64,000 bases of DNA from Phyllosticta citribraziliensis (taxonomy: Eukaryota), in the NCBI RefSeq assembly GCF_038025025.1, contig NW_027117355.1, positions 1 to 64,000 on the forward strand, in the 5' to 3' direction. Shown piece by piece: positions 2,333 through 19,271 of the stretch; position 1 is the first letter of the stretch, and every line of letters starts with the position of its first letter. Position numbers and translations under genes: made by a program. The notes beneath the pieces are model-generated. The model was not told the origin of the DNA and did no database searches. It saw only the letters and a list, made by a program, of their open reading frames with translations.

Positions 2333-3487
2333 TCAAGCCTTGCTCTGTCTCAACGCCTCTCTCTCCGCAGCTTTCGCGCTCTCTTCCCTTTCCATCTCTT
2401 CCCGTCGACGTACTGCTTCTTCTCCAATGCCCTTGACGCCCTTGACGCGTTGGCGCTCCTCGTATTGAGCTCGACTGCGCATGATGCGACCGACAATCTC
2501 TCCAGCATTGACGTGGGCAAAGTCGTGAGAATGAATCTCCTGGAAAATTCCTAGCTTCTCGCGTCCACGTATGGATCTTCGACCGATGGCATAAACGAAG
2601 TGGGACCATGGTAGATGACGTTCGGAAGGCCGTAGGGCAGAGACTTCAAGAAGGAGGACGACGGAGTGAAGGGCGCGGAAAAGACGACAGCAGATATGTA
2701 CTGCGCTTGTGAGCATTGGAAATGACGAGGTAGGATCCACAAACCTTGCACTGCAGAACGCAGAGACCGCGCTCGAAAATGTTCATGATGGGATAGTTGA
2801 CGCCCTTCCAATGGTTGATGACCTGGTCGTCATGAACGCCTGCAACAACATAGGCCGGGCTGTAGTCGGATCCCGATTCTGCTATGCGTTGCTGCGTCGC
2901 TTCTTGGGTGTACCAACCCCGTTCCCGACCTTCTTTCTCCTCTTTCTCGACGACACTCCGAAGAAACTCGATGTGACCTGACGAAAAGAGGTCGAATCCG
3001 CCGTCTACGTATACCACACGCTGTCCCTTTTTCGGTGCTACACCGTCGACCATCTTGCTGCACTTTCCATCGTCATTGGTTCCACTGGGCTCGGCCGTCT
3101 TGCTCTCGACAGCTTGATGCCACACCCAGACTTCGGAGCCTGGCTCGAGACCGGTCTCGTTGGACGCATACGCCTTTATTCTCTCCGTCATTTGTTCGCC
3201 AGCTTGTTTCCGCTCCTGATCGCTGCCGCTTCCCTCTTCGCCGGCCAGAGCCTTGTCCAGACTCTTTATAAAGTGTGTCTTGGTGCATAGCAGCATGCGC
3301 CCCACCAAATCAGTCGTCGAAATGCCGGGCGTCCTCTTGACAATCTTGAAGCGACCGGCCGCCTTGACGAAGCGGTAGCAGTCCTCGCCCGAGGCGTCGG
3401 AGGTGATGTCGTCGCCGTGAACAACGTACTTGCAGCCGTAGTGGAGATCCATGGCAATGAGGTGACGTAGGGAGCGTGGGGAATGGA
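2333..3487 (-). pseudogene. ECT1: Ethanolamine-phosphate cytidylyltransferase, 5'-truncated by the telomere array and carrying an apparent 1-bp frameshift
   Basis: YVVHGDDITSD, KRTPGISTTDL, VYVDGGFDLFSSGHIEFL, NYPIMNIFERGLCVLQC; intron ~2701-2744; upstream SIPHAPYVTSLPWIS is out of frame with HYGCKY at 3443-3444; the N-terminus is absent from the window. Confidence 0.85.
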
Positions 3488-3488
3488 A

Positions 3489-3620
3489 CCCTAACCCTAA
3501 CCCTAACCCTAACCCTAACCCTAACCCTAACCCTAACCCTAACCCTAACCCTAACCCTAACCCTAACCCTAACCCTAACCCTAACCCTAACCCTAACCCT
3601 AACCCTAACCCTAACCCTAA
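3489..3620 (+). repeat. Telomeric repeat array (CCCTAA)22
   Basis: 132 bp of perfect CCCTAA units, C-rich strand on +, the orientation of a left chromosome end. Confidence 0.98.
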
Positions 3621-5181
3621 TTAGCTAAATATAGTATTTACCTCTTTAAGTCTTATATTAAAGGGCTATTAGTTAGTTTTAAAATATAATAACTTTAGTT
3701 TTATATTTATAGTAATACTTATTTTTATTATAATAGTTAGTAATAAGCTAATTAAGAGCTATTTAGTATCTATTAATCTAGCTCTTATTAGTTATTATAT
3801 TTTTAATATTTTTAACTTTATTAATTATATCTTTAATAGATTTAAGATCTTTTATACTAATTATAATCTACTTCTTAAAAGCTATAATAGTAATAGATAT
3901 AGCTATTTATACTACTTATAGTACTATATTTTATTTTAATAACTTATCTAGTTAGTATTATATAGTAGCTAGATTTTATATATTATATATATATTTAGTA
4001 GTTTTAATCTAAATCTATTTAATAGAATAAAAGAAGAGTTATTAGCTTAAGTTTTTAATTAAAATAAAAATCTAGGCTCTTACTTAAAGAGATAATAAAG
4101 ATATCTTTTAATAATATTAAAAAATAGTAGATTAATATCTAATAAAGTAAGTTAATTAGCTAATAGTTAATAATTATAAGATAGAATAGTAGAAAAATAT
4201 AAAGCTATAGCTAACTTAGCCTATAGCTTATTTAAATATATATACTACTATATAGCTAAGATTTAGCTAATTCTATATTTTAATATTTTTATAGATTTTA
4301 TATCTACTTTACTATCTATCTATTCTATCTATATTAATTTATTTTATATACTATTAATAGACTAGCTACTCTTAGCTATTTTATAGATTATTAACTATAT
4401 TATATTAAAAAATAATAGATTATTATTATTTTTATTATAAGAGCCTCTTTAGCTTAGAATCTTACTTACTAGTCTTATTTAAAACTATAGACTATAAAAT
4501 AATAATATTTAAAGCTTCTAGTATATTTAAAACTATAGTATTTTATCTTAATACTATATAAGGTATAATTAAAATAAGAAAACTTATTAATAAAAAATAG
4601 ATAATAAGTCTTATTCTTTTATAAATAGTAAGAGATCTATTAATAGTATTATAGTATCTAGTAGAGTAAATTAATATAGACTACTAATAATTAATAGATA
4701 AGGAGTAAGAGTTATTATTATATAGTTAGTATAAAATAAGTATCTACTTCTAGGCTAGCTATAAATAGCTAGTATATATATAAGTAGTAAATACTAAGTA
4801 GTAAATACTATAAAATATAAACTCTAATATATATATAGTATATATAATAATAGTATTTTTTAATTAAAATTTAGCTAATTTTATACTTTAATACCTTTAT
4901 AGATCTTATATCTACTCTATTATTTAACTATTCTATTTATAGTAATTTATCTTAGTATTTTTATAAGTCTTATAGATCTTATATCTACTCTACTATTTAA
5001 CTACTACTCTATTTATAATAATTTATCTTAACTAGGTACTATAATAATCTCTCTTTACTTTTACTATAAAGAAATTTTAAAAGGCTATATAAGAAAAAAG
5101 AGTTTTTACTTATATATAATTATCTAATATTTCTATATAAGAGATATAAAGAATAGCCCTCTAGTATCCTACTTTACGCGA
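3621..5181. repeat. AT-rich RIP-degenerated repeat/subtelomeric block (probable transposon relic)
   Basis: Extremely AT-rich, abundant TpA, CpA/TpG and CpG almost absent, no ORFs; sharp boundaries against GC-balanced flanks. Confidence 0.85.
4897..5030 (+). repeat. Imperfect tandem duplication (~58-60 bp, 2 copies, ~73 bp apart) in the AT-rich block
   Basis: TTATAGATCTTATATCTACTCTA(T/C)TATTTAACTA...ATTTATCTTA at 4897-4954 and 4970-5030. Confidence 0.8.
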
Positions 5182-8100
5182 CTATAAGAATCGACTTGAT
5201 TTCCATCGATCGAGCCATCTACGTACTATCTCGACGGTAACCTTACTCCCCGCCTCAACGCTAGCCGTCTCAAACTGCACGCCCTCTCCATTCGCCTCCT
5301 GCTTTATGTCCTGGAAGAAGCCGAGCAACTTCAGGCCCGGGATCGCTTCTGCGCTTGCGTCGTCGGCGGCATTCTCCAGTCGTCGTACCCATTCGGTCAT
5401 GTCGACCCGCTCGAAAGGCGTTTCCGGGGCAGCGACAGCAAGGACGTCGAGGAACTCTGTCCAGGAAGAGGTAGCGGGGTTGACCAGGTTGTGCACTGCG
5501 TAAGACTCCTTCTGTTCTGTGGCTTCGCCGTTGGCGACGGTGTCGTTTTTGTTGCAACCCAATTTCTCGCTGATCGACGAAGCGCACATGTCGACGGGTA
5601 GCCAATTGACGACGGTTCCTGGGAGCTCGGGCATGGCCTGCAAGTGTTTGAGTCCGGTCGCGATCATGATGGGCCACATCTCCGAAGTGTTCCATACGCC
5701 GAGGCGTGAGTGTCCGCAGAGTTGACCGACGCGGAAGAGCTTGACAGGACTAGAGAGGGCCGCGGAATAGTGCTGAGTCACTCGTTCCACTGAGAACGAA
5801 GGCCATGTCAGTATGTGACAGGGCATCAAGATCGAAAAGGGCGGTAGCAACTGACCGATGTACTTGCTCTGTCCATATCCTGTGCTCAACGCCACCCTTG
5901 GGTCGTCGCCGACGGGCTCTTCGAGCACATTGCGCCCCTTGGCTGCTTCTCCCATGCATGCGGCGACACTGCTCATGATCGAGAACGTCTTTTGGGTGCC
6001 AGTCTGGCAAAACTTGAGAAGATGCATCGTCCCTGCAATCCGTTTCGTTAGCGACGCACACTTTTCAACAGGAATACGAAAGCCGTACCCTTCAAACAAT
6101 CCTTCTCGAACTCTTCCACCTTTTGGTTGAAGTCCATCTTCCATGCGTTGTGAACCACAACAGTCACTTCTCGAGTCAGCATGTCGAAAAGCTCTTCCCC
6201 GCTACCGAGATGTTCATCTTTCATGTCGTATGGGATGGCGTGTATCTTGCCACTGCAGTAAACGGCCTCATCATAGCCTCGTTGCTTCAGCGAGTGGATG
6301 AGCTTGATGCGCGGATCTGGGCCGCGGATTGCGCAGTAGACTTTCGAGACGTGTTCTTGCGCGACGAGATTCTCGAGCAAGGCGTTGCCGAGAGCACCGC
6401 TGGCACCGGTCAAATAGACGACTGCTCCCAGGCTTTCTGGGGGCACCGTTGTTGACTGAGAGTTGGTCCATCCGTCGATCGTGGAGTTGTAGCTCTGGAT
6501 GAGGTCCTGAACGTAGTTCAACCGTTGCGACTCGTTCGCCTCGGCTGGTGCGCCGCCATTTTTGAGGCCTTGGAGATAGACTAGCAACTTCTCGACCGAC
6601 GGACATTCAAAGATGAACATCAATGGAAATGTGCCGAATCGTTTGACAAGGCGCGACCTCAGTTTCACAGCGCGTTGTGAGTCCAAACCAAGGTCGTAAA
6701 AGCTCGTTCCGTCCTCGACAGCTGAATGCTCCTTGTCGCAAACTTCGGCTACCGACGCCCTGACGAATTCTCTGTCCGGCAGAGAGACCAGCTTGTCATC
6801 AGAAGGTCCTTCATCGGCTGGAGCGGCACCGAGGTAGCTTTCGTACAACGCGTCGACGCGATCTCCGTAGATTTTCCACGCCTCCTTCCTTCGCACGTTC
6901 CCTTTCGGGGTCACTGGGAGACTCTCTCCTGCGTTCAGTACCAGTACCATTTCCCTGTCGATACGTGCGTGCTTTGCGCTCTTCTGGTTCACCCGGTCGA
7001 GAACTTGCAGGAAATCTCCGCTTTCACTTGTGATTCCTTCCGCCAGCTGCACAATTGCCGCGACGCATGGTCGGCCATTGCCGAAGACAGCAGCTTTGTG
7101 GACAATCCCGTGGCCTTCTTCTTCCAGTAAGGCTGCCATTGTCCCTGCATGTGTCTTTTCTCCGTTGTCCAGAACAAGCACATCATCTTTCCGGCCGAGC
7201 AGCACAAAGTTTCCGGATCCCGGTGGGTCTTCGAAGAATAGATCATTGGTGCGGTATGGGTTCGGCGCGTCAGGGGCAAGCCACAGCTCCGCGGTGAGCT
7301 CAAACCCTTTGTAGATGACACACTCGAAGAGGCGAGTTCCAGCTTCAGAGTCATCTGCACCCACTTCTGTTAGAGGCTCCATCTGCACGAGCGGCGATTC
7401 CGGGTAAAGGTTGCGTAATCGGTAGCAATGCGGATTGTCCCGGGTGTGCGGGATGCTTCTGAATGGAGGTCCGATTTCAGTGCTTCCGTAGGTAGTCTTG
7501 ACGTTGACTCCTTTTGCGACCAACTCCTTGAGAACCTTCTCACCAAGTGGCGCGCCACCCGGTTGCACCACCTTCAAGTCCACGAGCGGGGAAAAGTCAT
7601 TTGTCGTGGCTGAGATGTACCCGTACAAATCTTCGATGACGCTTGGTGCACTGTGCAGACAATCGGCCGGCATGCCCACAGCAGCGAGTGCGCGGAAGGC
7701 CGTCAGGATAGTGCCGGGGGCCGGGGGCCACTGCAACGGAGGCATCGTCGTGGGAAGACCATTTGGCAGACCAGAGAAGGCAATGCAAAGACCCGCAATG
7801 TGGAACCTTGGTCAATGTCAGCCGATTGGGAAACGTCTTGTTCGCGAATGCTCCCTGGACACTTACAGCGGAAAACAGAGGTACCAGTTGTCCACCACGA
7901 ATGTGGGGAACAAGCGGTACATGCGTGCAATCAAACACAGACTCCGGTTTGTGTGAATGATTGGCTTCGGCATTCCTGTCGACCCAGAAGAGTGCAAGAC
8001 CATGGATTGGAGATTCCAGACGTCCTGAGCTTCGAATCCGTTGACCTTGGACTCATCATCGTCCTCCTTTTCTTTGCTCAATTCCAGTTCCGCCAGAGAC

Positions 8101-9573: not shown

Positions 9574-11332
9574 ATGGGACTCAGGCAACGTCTGGAACTG
9601 CGATCCGAAAATTCGGAGCTCGAGGCAAATGGCGAGAGCATTTCAAACAAGGACATGGATCCGATTCCACTGGGGTCACCCGAAAGAACATGGACATGGC
9701 CAAGCTTGCTGGGCTTTTGGGTTGCGGAGGCCTTCTCCATCTCCATGTATCAAGGTACGTACAAGAGCCATGAACAAGGAGCAGTCATTGACGCGCACAC
9801 AGTCGCTTCATCGTCCGTGAACAAAGGCCTGAATCCTGGTCTTGCCATTCTCGCAGTCATCGTCGGACATTTGCTCGTCTGCGTGCCGGCTATGCTTGAC
9901 GCCTTCGTTGGTTGCATTTTCGGCATCAATTTCCCCGTCTTCACACGCGCGTCGTTCGGCACTCGAGGTTCATACTTTGCTGTCTTCGTTCGCGGAGTCG
10001 TGGCTGCTATCTGGTTTGGTACACAAAGCTTTCAGGGCGGACAGTGTCTCCAGGTCATGATCAGTGCAATTTGGCCCAGCTTCAACGATTTTCCGAACCA
10101 CCTACCTGCCAGCGCGCACGTTACAAGTGCGGAGTTGCTGTGCTTTTTCTTGTTCATTTTGTTGCAATTGCCGCTCCTTTGGCTACACGTGTCGACATTG
10201 AGATGGATGTTCATGGCAAAGACGCTTTTGATGCCAGTCTTCGGCTTGACTTTGTTCATCTGGGCGCTGGTGGCTGGTTCGTTCCTCCGGAGCATTCGAT
10301 TGGTAGCGCAACATGCTGACAGAGCGCAGCTCACGGCTTTGGACCAACATTTTCTCGACCAACCAAGATTGCCGATGGCACTCCAGTTGCAGTTGTCTTC
10401 TTCCAGTGTGTCACCACAGCAATTGGCCCCAAGGCTACCCTTGCGCTCAACATGCCCGACTTCACGCGGTACGCCAAGTATCCGCGGGAAGTCTTCTGGA
10501 CACAAGCGGTTGGGCTCTTGGTCCTAGTGACGATGTGTGGCGTGCTCGGTGCGACAGTGTCTAGCGCGTCGGAGGTCATTTACGGGCAAGTGACATGGAG
10601 CCCGCTCGAAGTCGCGGTGCTGTGGGAGAACCGGGCGGCGCAATTCTTCGCGGGTCTCTGCTGGGCTTTTGCGGTCATTGGCACCAACATATCGGCGAAC
10701 AGCGTGAGCTTCAGCAACGATCTGGCGCTCTGGTTCCCAAAGTACATCAACAACAGACGAGGTGCATACGTCTGCGCGCTCCTGGGCATTTGCACTGTTC
10801 CTTGGAACATTCAGTACAAGTAAGCGACCCTGACTCACCATTGACTCTCATGATCTGACCTGAAACGCTCGTCGGCAGCGCAAAATCATTCTCCTCGTTC
10901 CTCAATGGCTACAGCCTCTTCCTGGGTGCCATTGCGGGCATCATCATCACAGACTTCTGGATTTGTCGCAAACGCCGTCTGTCGCTTTCATCGTTGTATG
11001 ACCCACACGGAATTCACCGTTACTTCTCCGGTGTGAACTTCCGAGCCATCATTGCCTTTATTTGCGGCATCGTGCCAAACATGCCGGGCCTTGCTGCAGC
11101 GTGCGGAGCGACAGGCGTGCCGAAGGGCGCAACGTACGTGTACAGCTTGAGTTGGCTGGTGAGCACGCTGGTAGCTGGTCTTGTGTACTGGGTATCGTTC
11201 AAGGTTGTGCCGTTCCCGGTGGATGAGAAGCAGGAGTTGGTGATTGAGGGAGGCGAGGTCGTGTCGGAGGACGCGCAATGGGTGGATGATAAGCACAGGG
11301 ATGCCGAAGCTTGCAAGGAGATACGGTCGTAG
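9574..11332 (+). CDS. NCS1 family (Fur-type) nucleobase/allantoin/hydantoin permease
   Basis: NKDMDPIP..RTWTW, GINFPVFTRASFG, WFGTQSFQGG, NMPDFTRYAK, NISANSVSFSNDL, FPKYINNRRGAY; many TM segments; three introns. Confidence 0.93.
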
Positions 11333-11795
11333 GGAACAATCGCATGCGACGAGGATAATGACGACATTGGCGAAGGAGCCCTGAGAAAAGCGTAGACAAA
11401 TAACCTGAGGATGTGGAGTGGTGGTGACTTGATGATGGAGCCTCCGGAGACGCGTCGCGACCCGCGTCTTGCCGGGTTTGGCGGGGTCGTGGATTAGATA
11501 AGCAAGGCCCTCGTCAGCCACGCCGACCAAGACCAGCACCAAACCACCTCGACACGGAGACTCCCTCTCAAACTCCGCTCTTCTTTCACTCTGGTCATCA
11601 GTCGGTGTTTGTTTTGCGTCAAAATTCTCATTATTCTGTCTTGTCCACCGTATTTCTTCATTGCGTTCGCCGAAACACCAAAACCCAAACGTCTGGCCGT
11701 CTTCGATCTCCGTCAAGCAAGAGCTCTTTCCCAAGGCTCAAACAAGTCGTCTTCCAATTTCAGTCTCTGCTTTTCCCGTTTTTTTAGTTCCGTCC

Positions 11796-13633
11796 CTACG
11801 CCACCAGGTTCTCCGGCTTATCCCACTCAGCCGCTTCTCCGCGAGGCTTGCTCAGCGTGCTCTTGCCGCGGCGCAAAAACTTTCCATCTCCCTTGGCACC
11901 GACAATGCCGCCGCCATCGCGATCCCAAATAACGCTACCGCGCAAGATCGTGTAGCGCGGCCAGTTGGTGAAGCGCATGCCTTCAAAGGGTGTGTAGTCG
12001 ATGGCATGATGGAGATGAGCGTTTGTCAGCGAAAAGGGCGTCATCGAGACGGAGGTGCCGTCTGCTGCAGCAACCTGCTCCGCGGTGGGGTACCAAATCA
12101 CAAGATCGGCGTCATACCCTGGCGCGATGGCACCCTTGGTGTTTCCCAGCCCGTACAGTTTCGCTGGATTAGTCGAAGTTACCTCTACGAACTTCTGAGG
12201 CGTCAAACGGCCCGTCAGCACGCCTCCCTCCCACAACGTCGACATGCGCGTCTCAACGCCGGGCAATCCATTGGGCACTTGGCGGTAATCTGGCTGCGAG
12301 GTCACATCTGAAGGGTCGGCAAGACCGCGCTTCTTGCCGCAAGGATGGTCGTACTGCGACGTCGCGTGGTCAGAGGAGAATGTTGTGACGCTTCCATTTG
12401 CGAGCCCACGCCACATGCCGTCGAGGTCTGCCCGGGACGCGCGCAGAGGCGGGGAGCATATGTGCTTGGCGCCCTCAAAGGGGTCGGTAACGGGATGGGG
12501 TGCCCGCAGGGCAGCCGAGGTCAAGAAGAGGTAATGGGGGCAAGTCTCGGCATGAATGGGTAAGAGACGGGTCTGAGCTTGGCGCACATGCGACACCGCA
12601 GTTGGAGAAGACATGTGTACGAGAAGGATGGGTGTATCTGTGAGTTTCCCGAATGTCAGTTCGCTGGATCAAGAAGACGACACACGACCAAGGCAGGCAG
12701 GAGATTCAAACTCACCGACGAGTTCAGAAATCGCAATGGCGCGGTATGTGGCCTCATCCTCGGCAATCTGTGGCCGCGAGATGGAATGGTAAAAAGGTGA
12801 GTTGAGGTTTTTCTCCATCAGACGTTCGCCGATCCACGCAATCATGTCCGCATTCTCTGCATGGACCATGGTCGTCATTCCAAGGCTTCGAGTGGCCATC
12901 ATGACATCCAACATTTCTTTGTCGCCAAGCTTCAGAGGATCGTAAGTCATGTACAGCTTCACGCTGCTGATGCCATCAGCCATCATCGCGGGCAGCTCGC
13001 CAGTCATGATGGCGGGCGTGGGATTGGTGAGAATGATGTGGAAACCATAGTCGCAGTACGCCTGGCCGGTTGAGCGACGATGGTAGTCTGCCACGACAGG
13101 GAACAAAGACGTGTCGGCGCGAGTCTGCATCGCGAAGCAAATGACGGTTGTTGTGCCGCCAGCAATAGCGGAACGGGTGCCAGTCTCGAAGTTGTCTCCA
13201 GTGCTTGCAACCTCAATCGACGAATCCTGCGTGGAAATGTAAGTTCTCGGCCTTCAATGCATCGAAATCACGGCAACAGAACATTTGCCCTCGGCTTTTC
13301 CTTTTGTTTCTGTCCAGAAGTTCCCTTGGCTTTCTAGAATCAGAGACGAGCGAGTACATACTTGGTCCAGGTGTACGTGCGAGTCAACACCACCAGGCGT
13401 CACATACGCGCCCTGTGCATCAATCACGTTTGTTGCTGCCAAAATCGATGCCAGGTTCTGGCCAAGCAGCAAAATCTTGCCATCCTTTACAGCAATGTCT
13501 TGGGCTGGATGAACGTGAGCCGCTGTCACCTCGAAGCATGTCAGCACTTGCACAGCTTCTTTTTGTTTGCAATGGATTCGCTTACGACTGTGGCGTTCTG
13601 GACGAGGAGATCGACTTCAATTTTGACAACCAT
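11796..13633 (-). CDS. Dihydropyrimidinase / D-hydantoinase (cyclic amidohydrolase)
   Basis: PGGVDSHVHL, SAIAGGTTT, SSVKLYMTY (carbamylated Lys), VHAEN, FSSDH, PNGLPGVETR, STNPAKLYGL, DYTPFEG; three introns. Confidence 0.93.
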
Positions 13634-14011
13634 GATGGAAACTTGCCGCGCACGAGGAGCATTCGTGGGCAAGCGGCCATGTTAGTAGTAGTCCGCCAAG
13701 AACAGCTGTGGTGTTGCGGTGTCAGTCGGCTTGCCTATCTCTTCCGATAACCTCTCGACGTACTTATCAACTGGCGTCGGCCGCCTGTGCCGCACAACCT
13801 TCAACACCACACGGAACCGCAACCTTATCGCGACGCGCACAACCAACGGCAATGCTCAACGCTCTCCGGTCGGCCTACGGGCATCCCGTAACGACGAGCT
13901 TGAATGTTTAGAACGCCATGTTGATCTACTTATGCCCTCGATCCCCTGCTTGCGAACACGCGGTGCAGGACAACTGTTGTTGCAGAGACCAGCAATCCCA
14001 CTTCCGTTACG
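13634..14011. promoter_or_regulatory. Divergent promoter between the hydantoinase and the carbamoylase-racemase fusion
   Basis: 378 bp; GATA sites at 13735, 13745, 13763, 13824; CCGCCAAG at 13693; TGTGGTGTTG at 13707 (+) and 13801 (-). Confidence 0.55.
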
Positions 14012-15817
14012 ATGCCGCGCACTATCCGTCTTGCCGCCGCCCAGATGGGCGCGACGCACTACGCGGATCCCCGCCCGAAAACGTTGCAGCGCATGATTAC
14101 GCTGCTCGAATCCGCATCTTCAAAGGGCGCTCAAGTTGTTTTGTTTCCCGAAACGGCCTTCACCACCTTCTTCCCCCGCCATTTGATCAGTGATCCTGTT
14201 GAGCTCGACTCTTTCTTCGAACATGGCGACATTTCGACTCAGGCGCAGACTAAGCCCTTGTTTGATAGGGCAAAAGAGTTGGGTGTCGACATTTCCGTCG
14301 GCTTCGCGGAAAAGACGGATGAAGGCGAGACATTCAACGCCTGCATCTACTACCACGCTAAGACTGCCTCGATTCTTTCAAAGTACCGCAAGATACATCT
14401 GCCTGGCGACTTTGAACCTTTCGCGGATCCGGAGGCCACCAATCAGCTCGAAAAGCGATATTTCAAACCCGGCGATCTTGGCTGGCAAGCGTTTCGCGTA
14501 TCTGGGCTTGTCGAATCTCCGCCTGAACGTGGCGATCCCATCTTTGGCATGATGATATGTAACGACAGGAGATGGGCTGAAAGTTGGAGAGTCCTTGGTC
14601 TGCAGGGAGTGGAGGTCGTTTTGTGTGGCTACAACACCGCCGGATTCGCGCCACACCTCTGGGGCTCCGACAAGAACATGGATCCAGACCAGGCACGCGG
14701 AAAGGCGCTCTTCCATCACAAGCTGGTAATGCAGGCCCACAGCTACACCAACGCCTGTTTTAGCGTCAGTGCCGCTCGTTGCGGTTTGGACGACGGCAAG
14801 TATGATCTCATCGGCGGGAGCTGTATCACCGGTCCTGAGGGAGAGCTGCTGGCCGAGAACTCAACTTTGGAGGATGAGGTTATTGTCGCCGACTGTAACT
14901 TGGATGAGTGCAGAGCAGGGAAGGAACGCACATTCGATTTTGGCCGCCATCGGCGCGTTGAGCATTACGCCCGTATCACTGAACAAACGGGTGTCACGGA
15001 GCCCCCCAAGCTGTCGACGGAACCAAATGGCAACACTGCTGCTACGAACGCTCCCTCTGCGCGTACATCGGACAAGAAAATTCGCGTCCTTCTGATAAAC
15101 CCAAACAGCACGAAGGCCATGACTGATGCTTGCGTCTCCATGGCTCAATCTCAACTTCCTCCGGATGTCATTCTCACTGGATTCACGTCGCCGCGGCCTG
15201 CTCCGAATGCAGTAGAGGGTAACTTCGACAACATCATGTCCGCTGCCGCGGCAGCTCGGGCTGCGCTTCCACTGGCTGCGACACATGACGCCGTCTTGGT
15301 CGCGTGCTACTCCGACCACGCCCTCATTCGCATGTTGCGCGAAGAACTCCCGCATCAGCCTGTAATCGGAATCATGGAAGCCTCCCTCTTCGCGGCGCGA
15401 ACTCTGGGCGGTCGCTTTGGTCTGATTGCTGTCAGTGAGCGGAGCCGTGTCATGCACGAGGACTCGATCAGGCACTACGGCTTCGACGGATTCTGTGCAG
15501 GAGTTGTGAGCTGCAAGCTTGGCGTCCTTGACTTGCACGATAAGAGCCAAGAAGAAGTCATGGCGATTATGTGTGGAGTTGGCAAAGAGCTGGTGGAGCG
15601 CGGCGCTGACGTGTTGACGCTTGGGTGCGCTGGTATGACGCCTTTGAAGGCCGCCGTTGAGGAGGCTGTCGGAGAAGATGTGCAAGTCGTTGATGGTGTA
15701 CTGGCGGGCGTGCAGCACTTGAGTGGAATTGTCCGGATGGGAGGGCGAACAGCCAAGAGGGGAGTCTACAAGAGCTCGGCAGCTGGAAGGAAAGCAAGAG
15801 GTCAGGACTGGATATGA
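14012..15817 (+). CDS. Fusion protein: N-carbamoyl-D-amino-acid amidohydrolase (nitrilase superfamily) + Asp/Glu/hydantoin racemase
   Basis: 601-aa intronless ORF; N-domain FPETAFTTFFPR, KYRKIHLPG..LEKRYFKPGD, ICNDRRWAE (E-K-C triad, D-carbamoylase-like); linker; C-domain LINPNSTKAMT, ACYSDH, IGIMEAS, LGCAGM. Confidence 0.92.
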   Translation: MPRTIRLAAAQMGATHYADPRPKTLQRMITLLESASSKGAQVVLFPETAFTTFFPRHLISDPVELDSFFEHGDISTQAQTKPLFDRAKELGVDISVGFAEKTDEGETFNACIYYHAKTASILSKYRKIHLPGDFEPFADPEATNQLEKRYFKPGDLGWQAFRVSGLVESPPERGDPIFGMMICNDRRWAESWRVLGLQGVEVVLCGYNTAGFAPHLWGSDKNMDPDQARGKALFHHKLVMQAHSYTNACFSVSAARCGLDDGKYDLIGGSCITGPEGELLAENSTLEDEVIVADCNLDECRAGKERTFDFGRHRRVEHYARITEQTGVTEPPKLSTEPNGNTAATNAPSARTSDKKIRVLLINPNSTKAMTDACVSMAQSQLPPDVILTGFTSPRPAPNAVEGNFDNIMSAAAAARAALPLAATHDAVLVACYSDHALIRMLREELPHQPVIGIMEASLFAARTLGGRFGLIAVSERSRVMHEDSIRHYGFDGFCAGVVSCKLGVLDLHDKSQEEVMAIMCGVGKELVERGADVLTLGCAGMTPLKAAVEEAVGEDVQVVDGVLAGVQHLSGIVRMGGRTAKRGVYKSSAAGRKARGQDWI

Positions 15818-16047: not shown

Positions 16048-16989
16048 CTAATCTTCAATCGTGAAGTAGTTCCACCTACCGCGCTCAAATCCTTTCTCTC
16101 CGAGTTTCCTCGGCCTTCCCGGCAGCTCCGTCCACTCGGCAACCTGCTCAGCAATCCACCGGAGCGACATTTGACGGCACGTATCATCGTAATTGCCGCC
16201 TCCGCCAAGTTCTCCGGTATATTTCTTACTGGGATTCAACCGCTGGACAGCGTTGATGATCGGATGCATCGTCCGAAGCGCATTCTCGTATCTGACCTTC
16301 CGAGGGATTTTTTGGCTCCTATGTTGGTCTTGAAACACGAAGCTAGGGTCGTACACGCGATATCTCGCGTCTTTTGGAAGGAACTGTACCGCTGCATCAT
16401 GGGGAGCGGTGTCGTCGTTCACTTCCAATTGAGCCTCAGACGGCATGGTTGTGACGAGATAGATCGTTGAGGCCTGCTCGTCGTGCTTCAGGATTTCTTC
16501 TTCCACTGTTCCATGGTGCCATTGATCGACCTCGTACGCCTCGAACAAATCTGGATACCTCTGCTCCGTTACTTCTCCATCGTGCGGCATCGGGTCGAAA
16601 TGCGTTTCAAGCAGATACTTGGTTGCGTACCATTCAAAAAAGTCTTTACGGTCCTTGTTAGTCCCGAAGACTATAGCGTGCTCACCAACCTTGTACTTTC
16701 TGCTCGGCTTTTCCCTGGGATTCTTGTCGTTGTCTCGAAAGTGGGCTCTCATGAACCCGTTAGCCGCCTTACCGCAGTCTGCCTCGTAGTGATACTCGGC
16801 ATGCCTGTCCAGGCATGCATTGAGTAGCTTGAGGATCGCATCCACAAGCTGGTGTTGTTTTGCCCCTCCGAAATGTTCAAATTGATCATTGGTCGGCAGG
16901 CCCCTATCTGAGAGCAAGGTGCGCAGCACTCGATATGCGCCGTCGAGGTCCATCGGCTCGTCAAGAAGGGGGAAACCTAGGTCGCTCAT
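16048..16989 (-). CDS. Hypothetical protein (313 aa, intronless)
   Basis: Long ORF with globular-protein composition from MSDLGFPLLDEP; no family recognised with confidence. Confidence 0.7.
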   Translation of the reverse strand: MSDLGFPLLDEPMDLDGAYRVLRTLLSDRGLPTNDQFEHFGGAKQHQLVDAILKLLNACLDRHAEYHYEADCGKAANGFMRAHFRDNDKNPREKPSRKYKVGEHAIVFGTNKDRKDFFEWYATKYLLETHFDPMPHDGEVTEQRYPDLFEAYEVDQWHHGTVEEEILKHDEQASTIYLVTTMPSEAQLEVNDDTAPHDAAVQFLPKDARYRVYDPSFVFQDQHRSQKIPRKVRYENALRTMHPIINAVQRLNPSKKYTGELGGGGNYDDTCRQMSLRWIAEQVAEWTELPGRPRKLGEKGFERGRWNYFTIED

Positions 16990-18013
16990 AGTTGAAATCG
17001 TCCGCGGTCGAAAAAGTGTCGTCGTAGTAAATGGTGGAGAGTCGATGTCGAGATTGCGTGCTTGTTTCGAGGTCGAGGCGAAGGAAAGCTGAATTATATA
17101 TTCTGTTCTCTTTCTTCGGTCTGTTTTGTTCATACATTGTTCACATTGCAGCCTTTGTCGCCAATCGCATCAAGACTTCTTTGTCTGTTTTTTGTTCAAC
17201 TTGCTCTTTCAGCACTATGGCCGAATTTGGCATGCGAGACCTGTTTGGAGGTCGACAAGGAGCATTCACGGGCATCAAAAAATCCACAGAGATCTCCGGG
17301 GATTATTTGGGTCGAGTTTCGGTTCATGGGAAGCTCATAATTTCGTGCCATGCTTGCCACCAGAGATAGGTATTTCTCTACCGACCGTCCTGCGAAACCA
17401 CATCAGCCTTCGACTTTGTCGTTTCTACACAAAGTATTGATGTTTTTGTTGCTCTCGGACGATGGCTGAATGTCAAAGCCAACAGCACCGGGCGGGGATT
17501 CGACCAAAATAGCTTTGTCTCGAGGAACAAAGACACCGTCAATTCGCCCAATCCACGATCCGGGCTGTCTTTTTGAGCCTCAACACCACGCATCCTCTCG
17601 TCGTCTCTTCAAAGACCACCCAAAACGGCACTCAAACCGGCAAGTGGTTGATCGGGCCGACGCACGAGCTCTTGACCACTTTCAGGCCTTATCATCGCGC
17701 TATCACCTTATATCATAAGCATTCAATTTTTTTCCCTCGTCCTCTTCCACCGCAATCTTCACGTCGGCGCCTTCCGTCCATATTTACCCGGACCCCGAAG
17801 TCGTCACGACGAGCACGTCCGCGAGAAGAAGAAGCACCGGAGGCCTCCAGCTCGCGGGAAAAAAAAAATGGGCCCGGCAAGACGGCGGCCTGACGACACG
17901 CCAATCACTTGCACAATGACCTTCTAGATCCAGCAGCGCGATTATTATTTAAATGAGATGGCGGAACTCCATTCCTGCGTTGCCCCCAGGTCCCTCGCTC
18001 AACTACTCCCACG

Positions 18014-19271
18014 ATGCCATCTCTGGTCAAGTCTCTGCAAGCCGCGTCGGCGGCGCTTGCCGCTATCGTCCCGCTCGCCTCTGCAGTTCCCGCTGGCTTC
18101 TACCCTAGGAACGTGACGGGACCGTCCAAGCCCAAGGTCATCCTCGACAATGACTGGTCGACCGCTGGATTCATTACGTTCCTGCTGCCCCTGGCTTCCG
18201 ACTGGGACGTTCTTGGTGTCGTGTCGGACACGGCCGACTCGTGGGCGCTGCAGACGGGACTCCACGCGCTGGCGACTCTCGAAGTCGGCAACCTCTCGTG
18301 CATCCCCGTGTACAAGGGGTCAGACTACCCGCTGATCCAAACAGAGGAGCGGTTCCAAGCCTGGGAAGCCGTCCACGGCGTGCTGCCATGGGAAGGCGTC
18401 TTCGCGGCGAAGAACCTCACGTACGAGGCCGAGGGCAACGATCCGACGTCTGGCAACCCGGACCGCATCTCGCGCGCGGCGTTCTTCGAGGGCTTCCCCA
18501 ACACGACGTTTGCGAGCGACACCAACGCCGCCAACTTCATGGTTGAGCAGGTCAAGAAGTACCCCGGCGAGGTCAGCATCTACTCCGGAGGTGCCCTGAC
18601 CAACATTGCGCTTGCCGTGCGCATGGACCCCGATTTCGCGAAGAACGCAAAGGAGCTCGTCATCATGGGCGGATATATCGACGTCAACCTGCTCCAGACC
18701 TCCGGCTCCGTGATGCAGGCCGACTTGAACTCGGACGTGCGTTGATCCTTTGGGGAAGAGAACCGGAGATTTCGCTGACCTTCCGCGCAGATCAACCTGA
18801 TCGTGGACCCGGAGGCGGCCAAGATTGCGCTGACTGCGGACTTCCCCAACATCACAATTGCCGGAAATGTGGCCAACCAGGTTCAGTCGACGCAGGACTT
18901 CCTCGACGAAGTGTACGAGGTCAAGAACGTGTACTCCGAACTGATGTACAACTACTACGGCACGACGTTCCCCTTCTGGGATGAGACGGCTGCGGCGATT
19001 ATTCTGGACCCCAGCATCGTCAAGAACAGCACAGAGTGTCAGTACCAATCGTAAAACTGTTGGAAGTCGGAAATCCTAACATGAATCAGTCTACCTTGAT
19101 GTTGATGTTGCGTACGCCAGCCCCAGCTACGGAAACATCCATGCGTACCAGGAGGCTCTGGCACCGCCGAACGTCCGCACCGTCAACTACGTCACCGAGA
19201 TTGATGGCGCCAAGCTGAAGAGCATGATCAAGAAGGCGGTCCAGTACCCAAAGACCTGTGCGCAGTTGTAA
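18014..19271 (+). CDS. Secreted inosine/uridine-preferring nucleoside hydrolase family protein
   Basis: Signal-peptide-like N-terminus; KVILDNDW, GALTNIALA, LVIMGGY, INLIVDPEAAKI, FWDETAA; introns 18737-18790 and ~19038-19089. Confidence 0.88.

What the first reader, a model, noticed from the sequence alone, without database searches (positions are those of the whole stretch)
14012..15817. Intronless D-carbamoylase / hydantoin-racemase fusion protein
Seen: one 601-aa ORF with a nitrilase-fold domain (E..K..C; KYRKIHLPG..LEKRYF.PGD, CNDRRW) joined by a Thr/Ala/Pro linker to a two-cysteine racemase domain (ACYSDH, GCAGM). Established: these motifs are typical of bacterial N-carbamoyl-D-amino-acid amidohydrolases and of hydantoin/allantoin racemases, which are usually separate proteins. 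Inference: the fusion joins the first and third pathway steps, with the second encoded divergently next door. It is intronless among intron-rich neighbours, which is compatible with a bacterial origin. It may be useful for D-amino-acid biocatalysis.
Basis: partly seen in the sequence, partly recalled or inferred. Interest (0 to 1): 0.75.

Follow-up and report, generated by a model that had tools for sequence, protein, structure and literature searches.

The report
Fungal two-in-one hydantoin breakdown enzyme
A fungal gene joins two enzymes that bacteria keep apart and, with its neighbours, probably lets the fungus take nitrogen from ring-shaped urea compounds; the fusion is common in moulds, moves between fungi, and no test of it was found.

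Summary
In detail: one intronless 601-aa ORF with a D-carbamoylase-type domain, a flexible linker and a two-cysteine hydantoin/allantoin racemase. It lies head-to-head with a dihydropyrimidinase (closest solved structure: yeast PYD2), next to an NCS1 permease. The fusion is not special to this genome: all 120 listed homologues carry both domains, and all named ones are fungal. No bacterial fusion was found. The carbamoylase half descends from one old bacterial gain. The racemase half groups with fungal racemases, not with those beside bacterial carbamoylases. Other fungi keep the two as separate neighbours, so the fusion arose inside fungi; intron lack is weak evidence of origin. Trees suggest fungus-to-fungus transfer (Colletotrichum, Sporothrix and Zymoseptoria copies nest inside Botryosphaeriales); a 2016 survey listed two other transfers of this family. 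Best reading: a one-gene add-on that turns the native dihydropyrimidinase into a pathway for chiral 5-substituted hydantoins (about 0.65). The substrate is unknown, and a His144-to-Gln change separates it from tested D-carbamoylases. No assay was found in ten paper searches. This scan noted the same system before in two other genomes. New variant of a known kind; moderate interest.

The parts
14012..15817 (+). Fused carbamoylase-racemase gene, one exon, 601 aa
   Evidence: 120 listed full-length homologues with both Pfam domains
14012..15004 (+). D-carbamoylase-type nitrilase-fold domain (residues 1-331). Triad Glu47 (14150), Lys127 (14390), Cys183 (14558); His129, Arg186, Arg187, His235 kept; Gln145 in place of His144
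   Evidence: residue roles from PMC3546935
15005..15079 (+). Thr/Ala/Pro/Asn-rich linker (residues 332-356), predicted disordered, variable in length
   Evidence: pLDDT <50 at 330-354, pTM 0.52; 16-45 residues in the 110 of 121 proteins where it could be measured
15080..15817 (+). Hydantoin/allantoin racemase domain; Cys432 (15305) and Cys539 (15626)
   Evidence: both align with the cysteines of 3QVJ that are serines in 3QVK; 29% identity to 5LG5
13634..14011 (.). 378-bp divergent intergenic region, probable shared promoter; 4 HGATAR sites
   Evidence: 0.75 expected, 2 of 300 shuffles as high; not enriched in 6 of 6 other fungal loci, so weak
11796..13633 (-). Dihydropyrimidinase/hydantoinase, PYD2 type, 522 aa; introns 13530-13585, 13227-13361, 12638-12715
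   Evidence: best solved relative 2FTY, E 1e-62 and 8e-35 for two exons; third intron spliced in RNA run X5
9574..11332 (+). NCS1-family permease, about 532-535 aa, 3 introns, tail-to-tail with the hydantoinase
   Evidence: PF02133; gene models; same arrangement in L011
5182..8606 (-). NRPS-like adenylation-thiolation-reductase gene; membership of the cluster uncertain
   Evidence: Pfam; a 42-57% identical gene lies beside the dihydropyrimidinase in 1 of 30 fungal loci (L013)

Best explanation
A bifunctional enzyme of a fungal nitrogen-scavenging pathway for chiral 5-substituted hydantoins. The permease imports the ring compound. The racemase domain interconverts its C5 enantiomers by two-cysteine proton exchange. 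The neighbouring dihydropyrimidinase opens the D-ring. The nitrilase-fold domain (Glu-Lys-Cys) then releases ammonia, CO2 and a D-amino acid. The fused steps are not consecutive and the linker is floppy, so channelling is unlikely. The two fused activities are the ones needed only for chiral hydantoins, while the dihydropyrimidinase is shared with pyrimidine breakdown; fusion packs the add-on into one gene that is co-expressed and can move alone. Shown: sequence, residues, folds, gene order, trees. Inferred: every activity, D-specificity, the substrate class and the reason for fusion. History (inferred): old bacterial gain of the carbamoylase, clustering with a fungal racemase, fusion inside fungi, later splits and fungus-to-fungus transfers.
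For: Triad and 4 of 5 published recognition residues kept against 1FO6; triad in 121 of 121 fused proteins, second racemase Cys in 120 of 121, first matched in 112 of 121 by a strict motif. D-carbamoylases rank first by sequence and fold. Carbamoylase and racemase are separate neighbours in 11 of 30 fungal loci, a dihydropyrimidinase lies upstream in 7 of 30, and L011 has the window's order with the racemase inverted. Bacterial relatives sit with racemases (29 of 130 loci) and hydantoinase-like genes (30 of 130); one plasmid copy precedes a D-amino-acid transaminase and a D-aminoacylase. The genome has an allantoinase, a second racemase and two M20 beta-alanine-synthase-like genes elsewhere, so allantoin and ureidopropionate have other candidates. 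Two fused loci with 9-kb flanks lack the dihydropyrimidinase (L008, L028).
Against: No activity was measured. His144 is Gln in 121 of 121 fused proteins. The neighbour's closest solved relative is a dihydropyrimidine enzyme, and I recall, unchecked, that this yeast enzyme acts poorly on hydantoins. The racemase's closest solved relatives are allantoin racemases. No common natural 5-substituted hydantoin is identified. The dihydropyrimidinase is present in only 3 of the 8 fungal loci with full 9-kb upstream flanks.
Confidence: 0.65

Rival explanations
1. Pyrimidine cluster: the permease imports dihydrouracil or dihydrothymine, PYD2 opens the ring, the N-domain acts as a new beta-ureidopropionase/ureidoisobutyrase, and the racemase inverts C5 of dihydrothymine formed by DNA damage.
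For: The neighbour is the PYD2 orthologue and the only such gene found in the genome. His144 is changed. Dihydropyrimidines arise from DNA damage (PMC9585004). Uracil phosphoribosyltransferase lies in 4 of 130 bacterial loci.
Against: No beta-substrate activity is described for D-carbamoylases (PMC3546935). Two M20 beta-alanine-synthase-like genes exist elsewhere in the genome. The carboxylate-binding arginine pair of alpha-substrate enzymes is intact.
Confidence: 0.15
2. Second allantoin route: the racemase recovers (R)-allantoin and the N-domain strips a carbamoyl group from allantoate.
For: Closest solved racemases are allantoin racemases and share the EGxFD motif. PuuE-like genes lie in 39 of 130 bacterial loci, and 20 of 130 carry two carbamoylases, as a di-ureido substrate would need.
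Against: A separate allantoinase and a second racemase lie on other contigs. The neighbour scores as dihydropyrimidinase, not allantoinase.
Confidence: 0.12
3. Biosynthetic or detoxifying cluster together with the NRPS-like reductase, which would consume the released D-amino acid.
For: A similar reductase gene is linked in L013; a P450 family recurs in 4 of 30 fungal loci.
Against: The reductase is seen in only 1 of 30 fungal loci, and many are too short to tell.
Confidence: 0.05
4. Recent transfer of a ready-fused gene or operon from a bacterium.
For: No intron; 50-53% identity of the N-domain to alphaproteobacterial proteins.
Against: Fungal relatives are far closer. In 5 of 5 bacterial loci where a racemase follows directly, a stop or frame change separates the genes. 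The Atlas cluster of 65 is all eukaryotic. The racemase does not come from those operons.
Confidence: 0.03

Closest known systems
[quoted passage not shown]
   Same: Fold, 41-42% identity, Glu-Lys-Cys triad, His129, Arg175/Arg176, His215 equivalents
   Different: Fused to a racemase; His144 replaced by Gln, as in the alphaproteobacterial sister clade; two loop insertions; fungal; activity untested
Allantoin/hydantoin racemases (3QVJ, 5LFD; yeast Dcg1 as probable member)
   Same: Two catalytic cysteines as in 3QVJ, EGxFD motif, C-terminal extension
   Different: About 29% identity; fused; belongs to a fungal lineage apart from the genome's second racemase; substrate unknown
Bacterial hyu clusters / hydantoinase process
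   Same: Permease, racemase, hydantoinase and carbamoylase in one cluster
   Different: Eukaryotic; assembled from parts of different origin; the ring opener is the fungal PYD2 type; steps 1 and 3 fused. The natural function of the bacterial enzymes is itself unclear (PMC3546935)
Lachancea kluyveri PYD2/PYD3 pyrimidine route (organism and gene names recalled for 2FTY and 1R3N)
   Same: Neighbouring gene is closest to 2FTY
   Different: The yeast third step is an M20 metallo-enzyme; here a nitrilase-fold enzyme and a racemase are clustered instead
Asp_Glu_race transfer events of Naranjo-Ortiz et al. 2016 (PMC5169069, supplement rows 39 and 41)
   Same: Row 41 names S7PUH3, the Gloeophyllum fusion found here; row 39 lists Aspergillus/Byssochlamys proteins with the same annotation
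   Different: The parts read do not describe the fusion, the cluster, or the Colletotrichum/Sporothrix/Zymoseptoria nesting

Membership tests
D-carbamoylase (EC 3.5.1.77) | Nitrilase fold with Glu47-Lys127-Cys172 triad | tested here: met
   Glu47, Lys127, Cys183
D-carbamoylase (EC 3.5.1.77) | Recognition residues His129, Arg175, Arg176, His215 | tested here: met
   His129, Arg186, Arg187, His235; His235 is Gln in some homologues
D-carbamoylase (EC 3.5.1.77) | His144 | tested here: not met
   Gln145 here and in 121 of 121 fused proteins; filed as D-carbamoylase-like, sister subfamily
D-carbamoylase (EC 3.5.1.77) | Strict hydrolysis of N-carbamoyl-D-alpha-amino acids | not testable with these tools
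   needs assay
Eukaryotic beta-ureidopropionase / Nit proteins | Closest sequence and fold relatives in these branches | tested here: not met
   Nit2 E 3e-6, an archaeal chain labelled nitrilase/beta-ureidopropionase 1e-13, against 1e-71 for D-carbamoylase; no animal or plant beta-ureidopropionase sequence was placed in the tree
Hydantoin/allantoin racemase (PF01177) | Asp_Glu_race fold with two active-site cysteines | tested here: met
Allantoin racemase | Specificity for allantoin | not testable with these tools
   sequence does not separate allantoin from other hydantoins at 29% identity
Bacterial hyu-type cluster | Permease, racemase, cyclic amidohydrolase and carbamoylase linked | tested here: met
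   9574-15817; recurs in L011 and partly in others
Bacterial hyu-type cluster | Descent of the whole set from one bacterial operon | tested here: not met
   racemase and ring opener are closest to fungal proteins
Bacterial hyu-type cluster | Growth on or conversion of 5-substituted hydantoins | not testable with these tools
   needs assay or deletion

The most novel reading that the evidence does not exclude
The fusion is a mobile one-gene module, traded among unrelated fungi, that converts the native dihydropyrimidinase and a nucleobase permease into a pathway for an unrecognised natural chiral hydantoin, most likely a nucleobase-derived ureide such as 5-ureidomethyl-hydantoin. Hints from the bacterial side: a relative fused to diaminopropionate ammonia-lyase and paired carbamoylases beside a hydantoinase in 20 of 130 loci. 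It would give a genetically tractable eukaryotic handle on the open question of what D-hydantoinase/D-carbamoylase pathways do in nature.
Probability: 0.25. Interest if true: 0.72.

Novelty: new variant of a known kind. Interest (0 to 1): 0.42.

Why it matters
D-carbamoylases are described from bacteria and used in industrial D-amino-acid synthesis, yet the natural role of the pathway is stated to be unclear (PMC3546935). A conserved fungal version with an orthologue listed for Aspergillus nidulans makes that question testable by deletion and growth. A natural carbamoylase-racemase fusion, including one from a thermophile (Thermoascus, 71% identical), is a ready two-in-one biocatalyst candidate. 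The gene is also a clear case of fusion, splitting and transfer between fungi. Limits: the domains and pathway type are known, public databases already hold the architecture, and two transfers were listed in 2016.

Tried and rejected
Intron lack as an origin marker: rejected; the loci are ranked by best unbroken match, so the sample leans towards intron-poor copies. Bacterial fusion: none in 5 of 5 adjacent pairs or in the Atlas cluster; the best 150 of 3954 representatives showed one full-length two-domain match. Sequencing runs X2-X4 as RNA evidence: set aside, because their contigs cross introns unspliced and RNA is only a guess. Promoter motifs: GATA enrichment in the window only; no shared CGG motif across 7 loci. 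A Zn2Cys6-type regulator found in 6 of 30 fungal loci has no match in window 1-32000. Diaminopropionate ammonia-lyase linkage: 0 of 130 bacterial loci; the fungal genome's copy is unlinked and under the family cut-off. No NCBIfam family reached its cut-off for the fusion. My recall that the A. nidulans orthologue Q5ATG3 is AN8417 and that AN8416 is the permease FurE could not be confirmed; only AN8418 as a 527-aa amidohydrolase was seen, the relevant tree is a picture, and most supplements of PMC5307856 were not searched. No complex prediction was run, as no binding is claimed. Three genome stretches were not analysed.

Full report
Observation. The window is fungal. Positions 14012-15817 (+) are one open frame of 601 codons with CN_hydrolase at residues 6-303 and Asp_Glu_race at 359-569. 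The protein is 95% identical to a Phyllosticta citricarpa protein and falls in one 90% cluster with Phyllosticta proteins. The structure model (25-row alignment, mean pLDDT 73, pTM 0.52) has two folded domains and a low-confidence linker at 330-354. Sequence and fold searches of solved structures put bacterial D-carbamoylases first (E 1e-71; 41-42% identity), with allantoin racemases for the second domain.

Active sites. Against 1FO6 the triad Glu47/Lys127/Cys183 and His129, Arg186, Arg187 and His235 are kept; His144 is Gln145 (Glu47; residue roles from passages of PMC3546935). The Gln is in 121 of 121 fused proteins and in 131 of 154 motif copies in bacterial loci, though the search pattern itself favoured Gln. 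Cys432 and Cys539 align with the two cysteines of 3QVJ that are serines in 3QVK.

Neighbours. Head-to-head, 378 bp away, lies a 522-aa dihydropyrimidinase with three introns. Its best solved relative is 2FTY (E 1e-62), which I recall as Lachancea kluyveri PYD2; the only other match in the genome is allantoinase-like. An NCS1 permease follows, then an NRPS-like reductase. Elsewhere the genome has a second, intron-containing racemase and two M20 genes, of which the one tested was nearest beta-alanine synthase and bacterial amidases alike.

Spread. All 120 listed of 716 hits carry both domains at 65-95% identity; named ones are Dothideomycetes, Sordariomycetes, Eurotiomycetes and two Gloeophyllales (taxonomy recalled). 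The Atlas cluster has 65 members, all eukaryotic. The named nearest shorter forms of each half are fungal too, including Saitoella (64%); Candida boidinii has a more distant carbamoylase. Of 30 fungal-looking metagenome loci, 11 hold carbamoylase and racemase as separate neighbours (7 convergent within about 1 kb), 7 hold the dihydropyrimidinase upstream, 6 a fungal transcription factor, and L011 has the window's gene order with the racemase inverted and unfused. Six loci are fused in frame or with an intron inside the carbamoylase, and L025 probably through an intron in the linker. Many loci are short, so these are lower bounds.

Origin. In a 135-row carbamoylase tree all named fungal rows fall in one branch (82 rows, SH-aLRT 100), sister to alphaproteobacterial proteins (99), among other bacterial D-carbamoylase-like rows (quick method, long branches flagged, the assayed enzymes themselves not included). 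Fused proteins form one 47-row branch (95) that also holds a few stand-alone forms, with Saitoella as sister. In racemase trees the fused domain groups with fungal stand-alone racemases and Saitoella (99/98), and the 12 racemases from bacterial carbamoylase loci form a separate branch (100/100). Bacterial racemases were thinly sampled, so an older bacterial source of the fungal lineage is not excluded. The simplest history is one old gain of the carbamoylase, clustering with a fungal racemase, one fusion, and later splits. Introns say little: 9 of 30 fungal carbamoylase loci are interrupted, 6 of 7 dihydropyrimidinases are single frames, and GC3 of the ORF matches its neighbours.

Transfer between fungi. 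In a 35-row full-length tree, Colletotrichum, Sporothrix/Niveomyces and Zymoseptoria tritici nest inside Botryosphaeriales (100/99), Zymoseptoria within Colletotrichum. AU tests reject Botryosphaeriales as one clade (p 0.00035), Zymoseptoria with its own order-level relatives (p 8e-5) and Dothideomycetes (p 3e-87). I chose these groups after seeing the tree, used 35 of 121 proteins, and did not exclude hidden paralogy. [quoted passage not shown] My tree keeps Eurotiomycetes together (86/89) and does not itself prove the second.

Mechanism. Most likely (0.65) the cluster imports a 5-substituted hydantoin, racemises it, opens the D-ring and releases ammonia, CO2 and a D-amino acid, as in the bacterial hydantoinase process (passages of PMC7431475). 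All activities are inferred. Steps 1 and 3 are not consecutive and the linker varies from 16 to 45 residues, so channelling is unlikely; the fusion joins the two activities needed only for chiral substrates, and L008 and L028 carry it without the dihydropyrimidinase. Rivals are a dihydropyrimidine role (0.15; passages of PMC9585004), an allantoin role (0.12; passages of PMC13751858 and PMC3646786) and a biosynthetic role (0.05). Bacterial context hints at ureides: among 130 loci, 39 have a PuuE-like gene, 30 a hydantoinase-like gene, 29 a racemase, 24 a TRZ/ATZ-type amidohydrolase and 20 a second carbamoylase; one relative is fused to diaminopropionate ammonia-lyase, the last enzyme of the ureidomethyl-hydantoin route (passages of PMC12990295). 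That enzyme was in 0 of 130 loci, so this remains a lead. Oxidised-guanine hydantoins are another proposed source (passages of PMC12623156).

RNA. Contigs only. Run X5 (RNA, related species) crosses the linker ungapped and splices one hydantoinase intron, but also has an unspliced permease contig; X2, identical to the window, leaves a 26-base hole in the linker; X2-X4 are unspliced across introns. The case for one protein rests on the open frame and its conservation.

Literature and novelty. Ten searches found no description or assay of the fusion or cluster; most subscription papers are not held. Passages of PMC11503299, PMC13534542, PMC4782317, PMC3914424, PMC8306328, PMC5371717 and PMC5307856 added little. 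A supplement lists A. nidulans AN8418 as a 527-aa amidohydrolase, which fits my unconfirmed recall that the orthologue lies between it and the permease FurE. Earlier notes of this scan describe the same system in two other genomes and on this stretch; they are not independent support. Verdict: a real, conserved, untested natural fusion; new variant of a known kind; interest 0.42.

Noticed in passing
window 11591-13659, + strand: Three runs (RNA by guess) give long unspliced contigs over the hydantoinase gene, and one ends in a loose run of 8 A at 13602 on the + strand: possible antisense transcript, or DNA.
   Followed up: no
window 13530-13585: First hydantoinase intron models with a rare GAG acceptor.
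   Followed up: partly
window 16048-17169, - strand: 373-codon open frame with no Pfam match and no match in the related loci.
   Followed up: partly
window about 18018-19050, + strand: Nucleoside hydrolase (PF01156) with an apparent signal peptide, 2 kb past the cluster; not seen in related loci.
   Followed up: partly
window 3001-6000: AT-rich stretch (GC 0.29-0.34 against about 0.55) just beyond the NRPS-like gene; may be a degraded repeat.
   Followed up: no
P0382 (Granulosicoccus): D-carbamoylase-like domain fused to diaminopropionate ammonia-lyase.
   Followed up: partly
L054, L075, L077, L117, L147 and others (20 of 130 bacterial loci): Two divergent carbamoylase paralogues, mostly beside an ErtD-like hydantoinase, suggesting a substrate with two ureido groups.
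   Followed up: partly
P0245, P0256, P0278, P0294, P0295, P0308, P0326; P0125, P0126, P0138: Stand-alone racemases (Myriangiales, Didymellaceae) and carbamoylases nested in the fused branch: repeated splitting or annotation errors.
   Followed up: partly
L014, L023, L024, L029: A cytochrome P450 family recurs beside unfused carbamoylases.
   Followed up: no
G000:C10:1124079-1125176: Diaminopropionate ammonia-lyase-like gene in the fungal genome, unlinked.
   Followed up: partly
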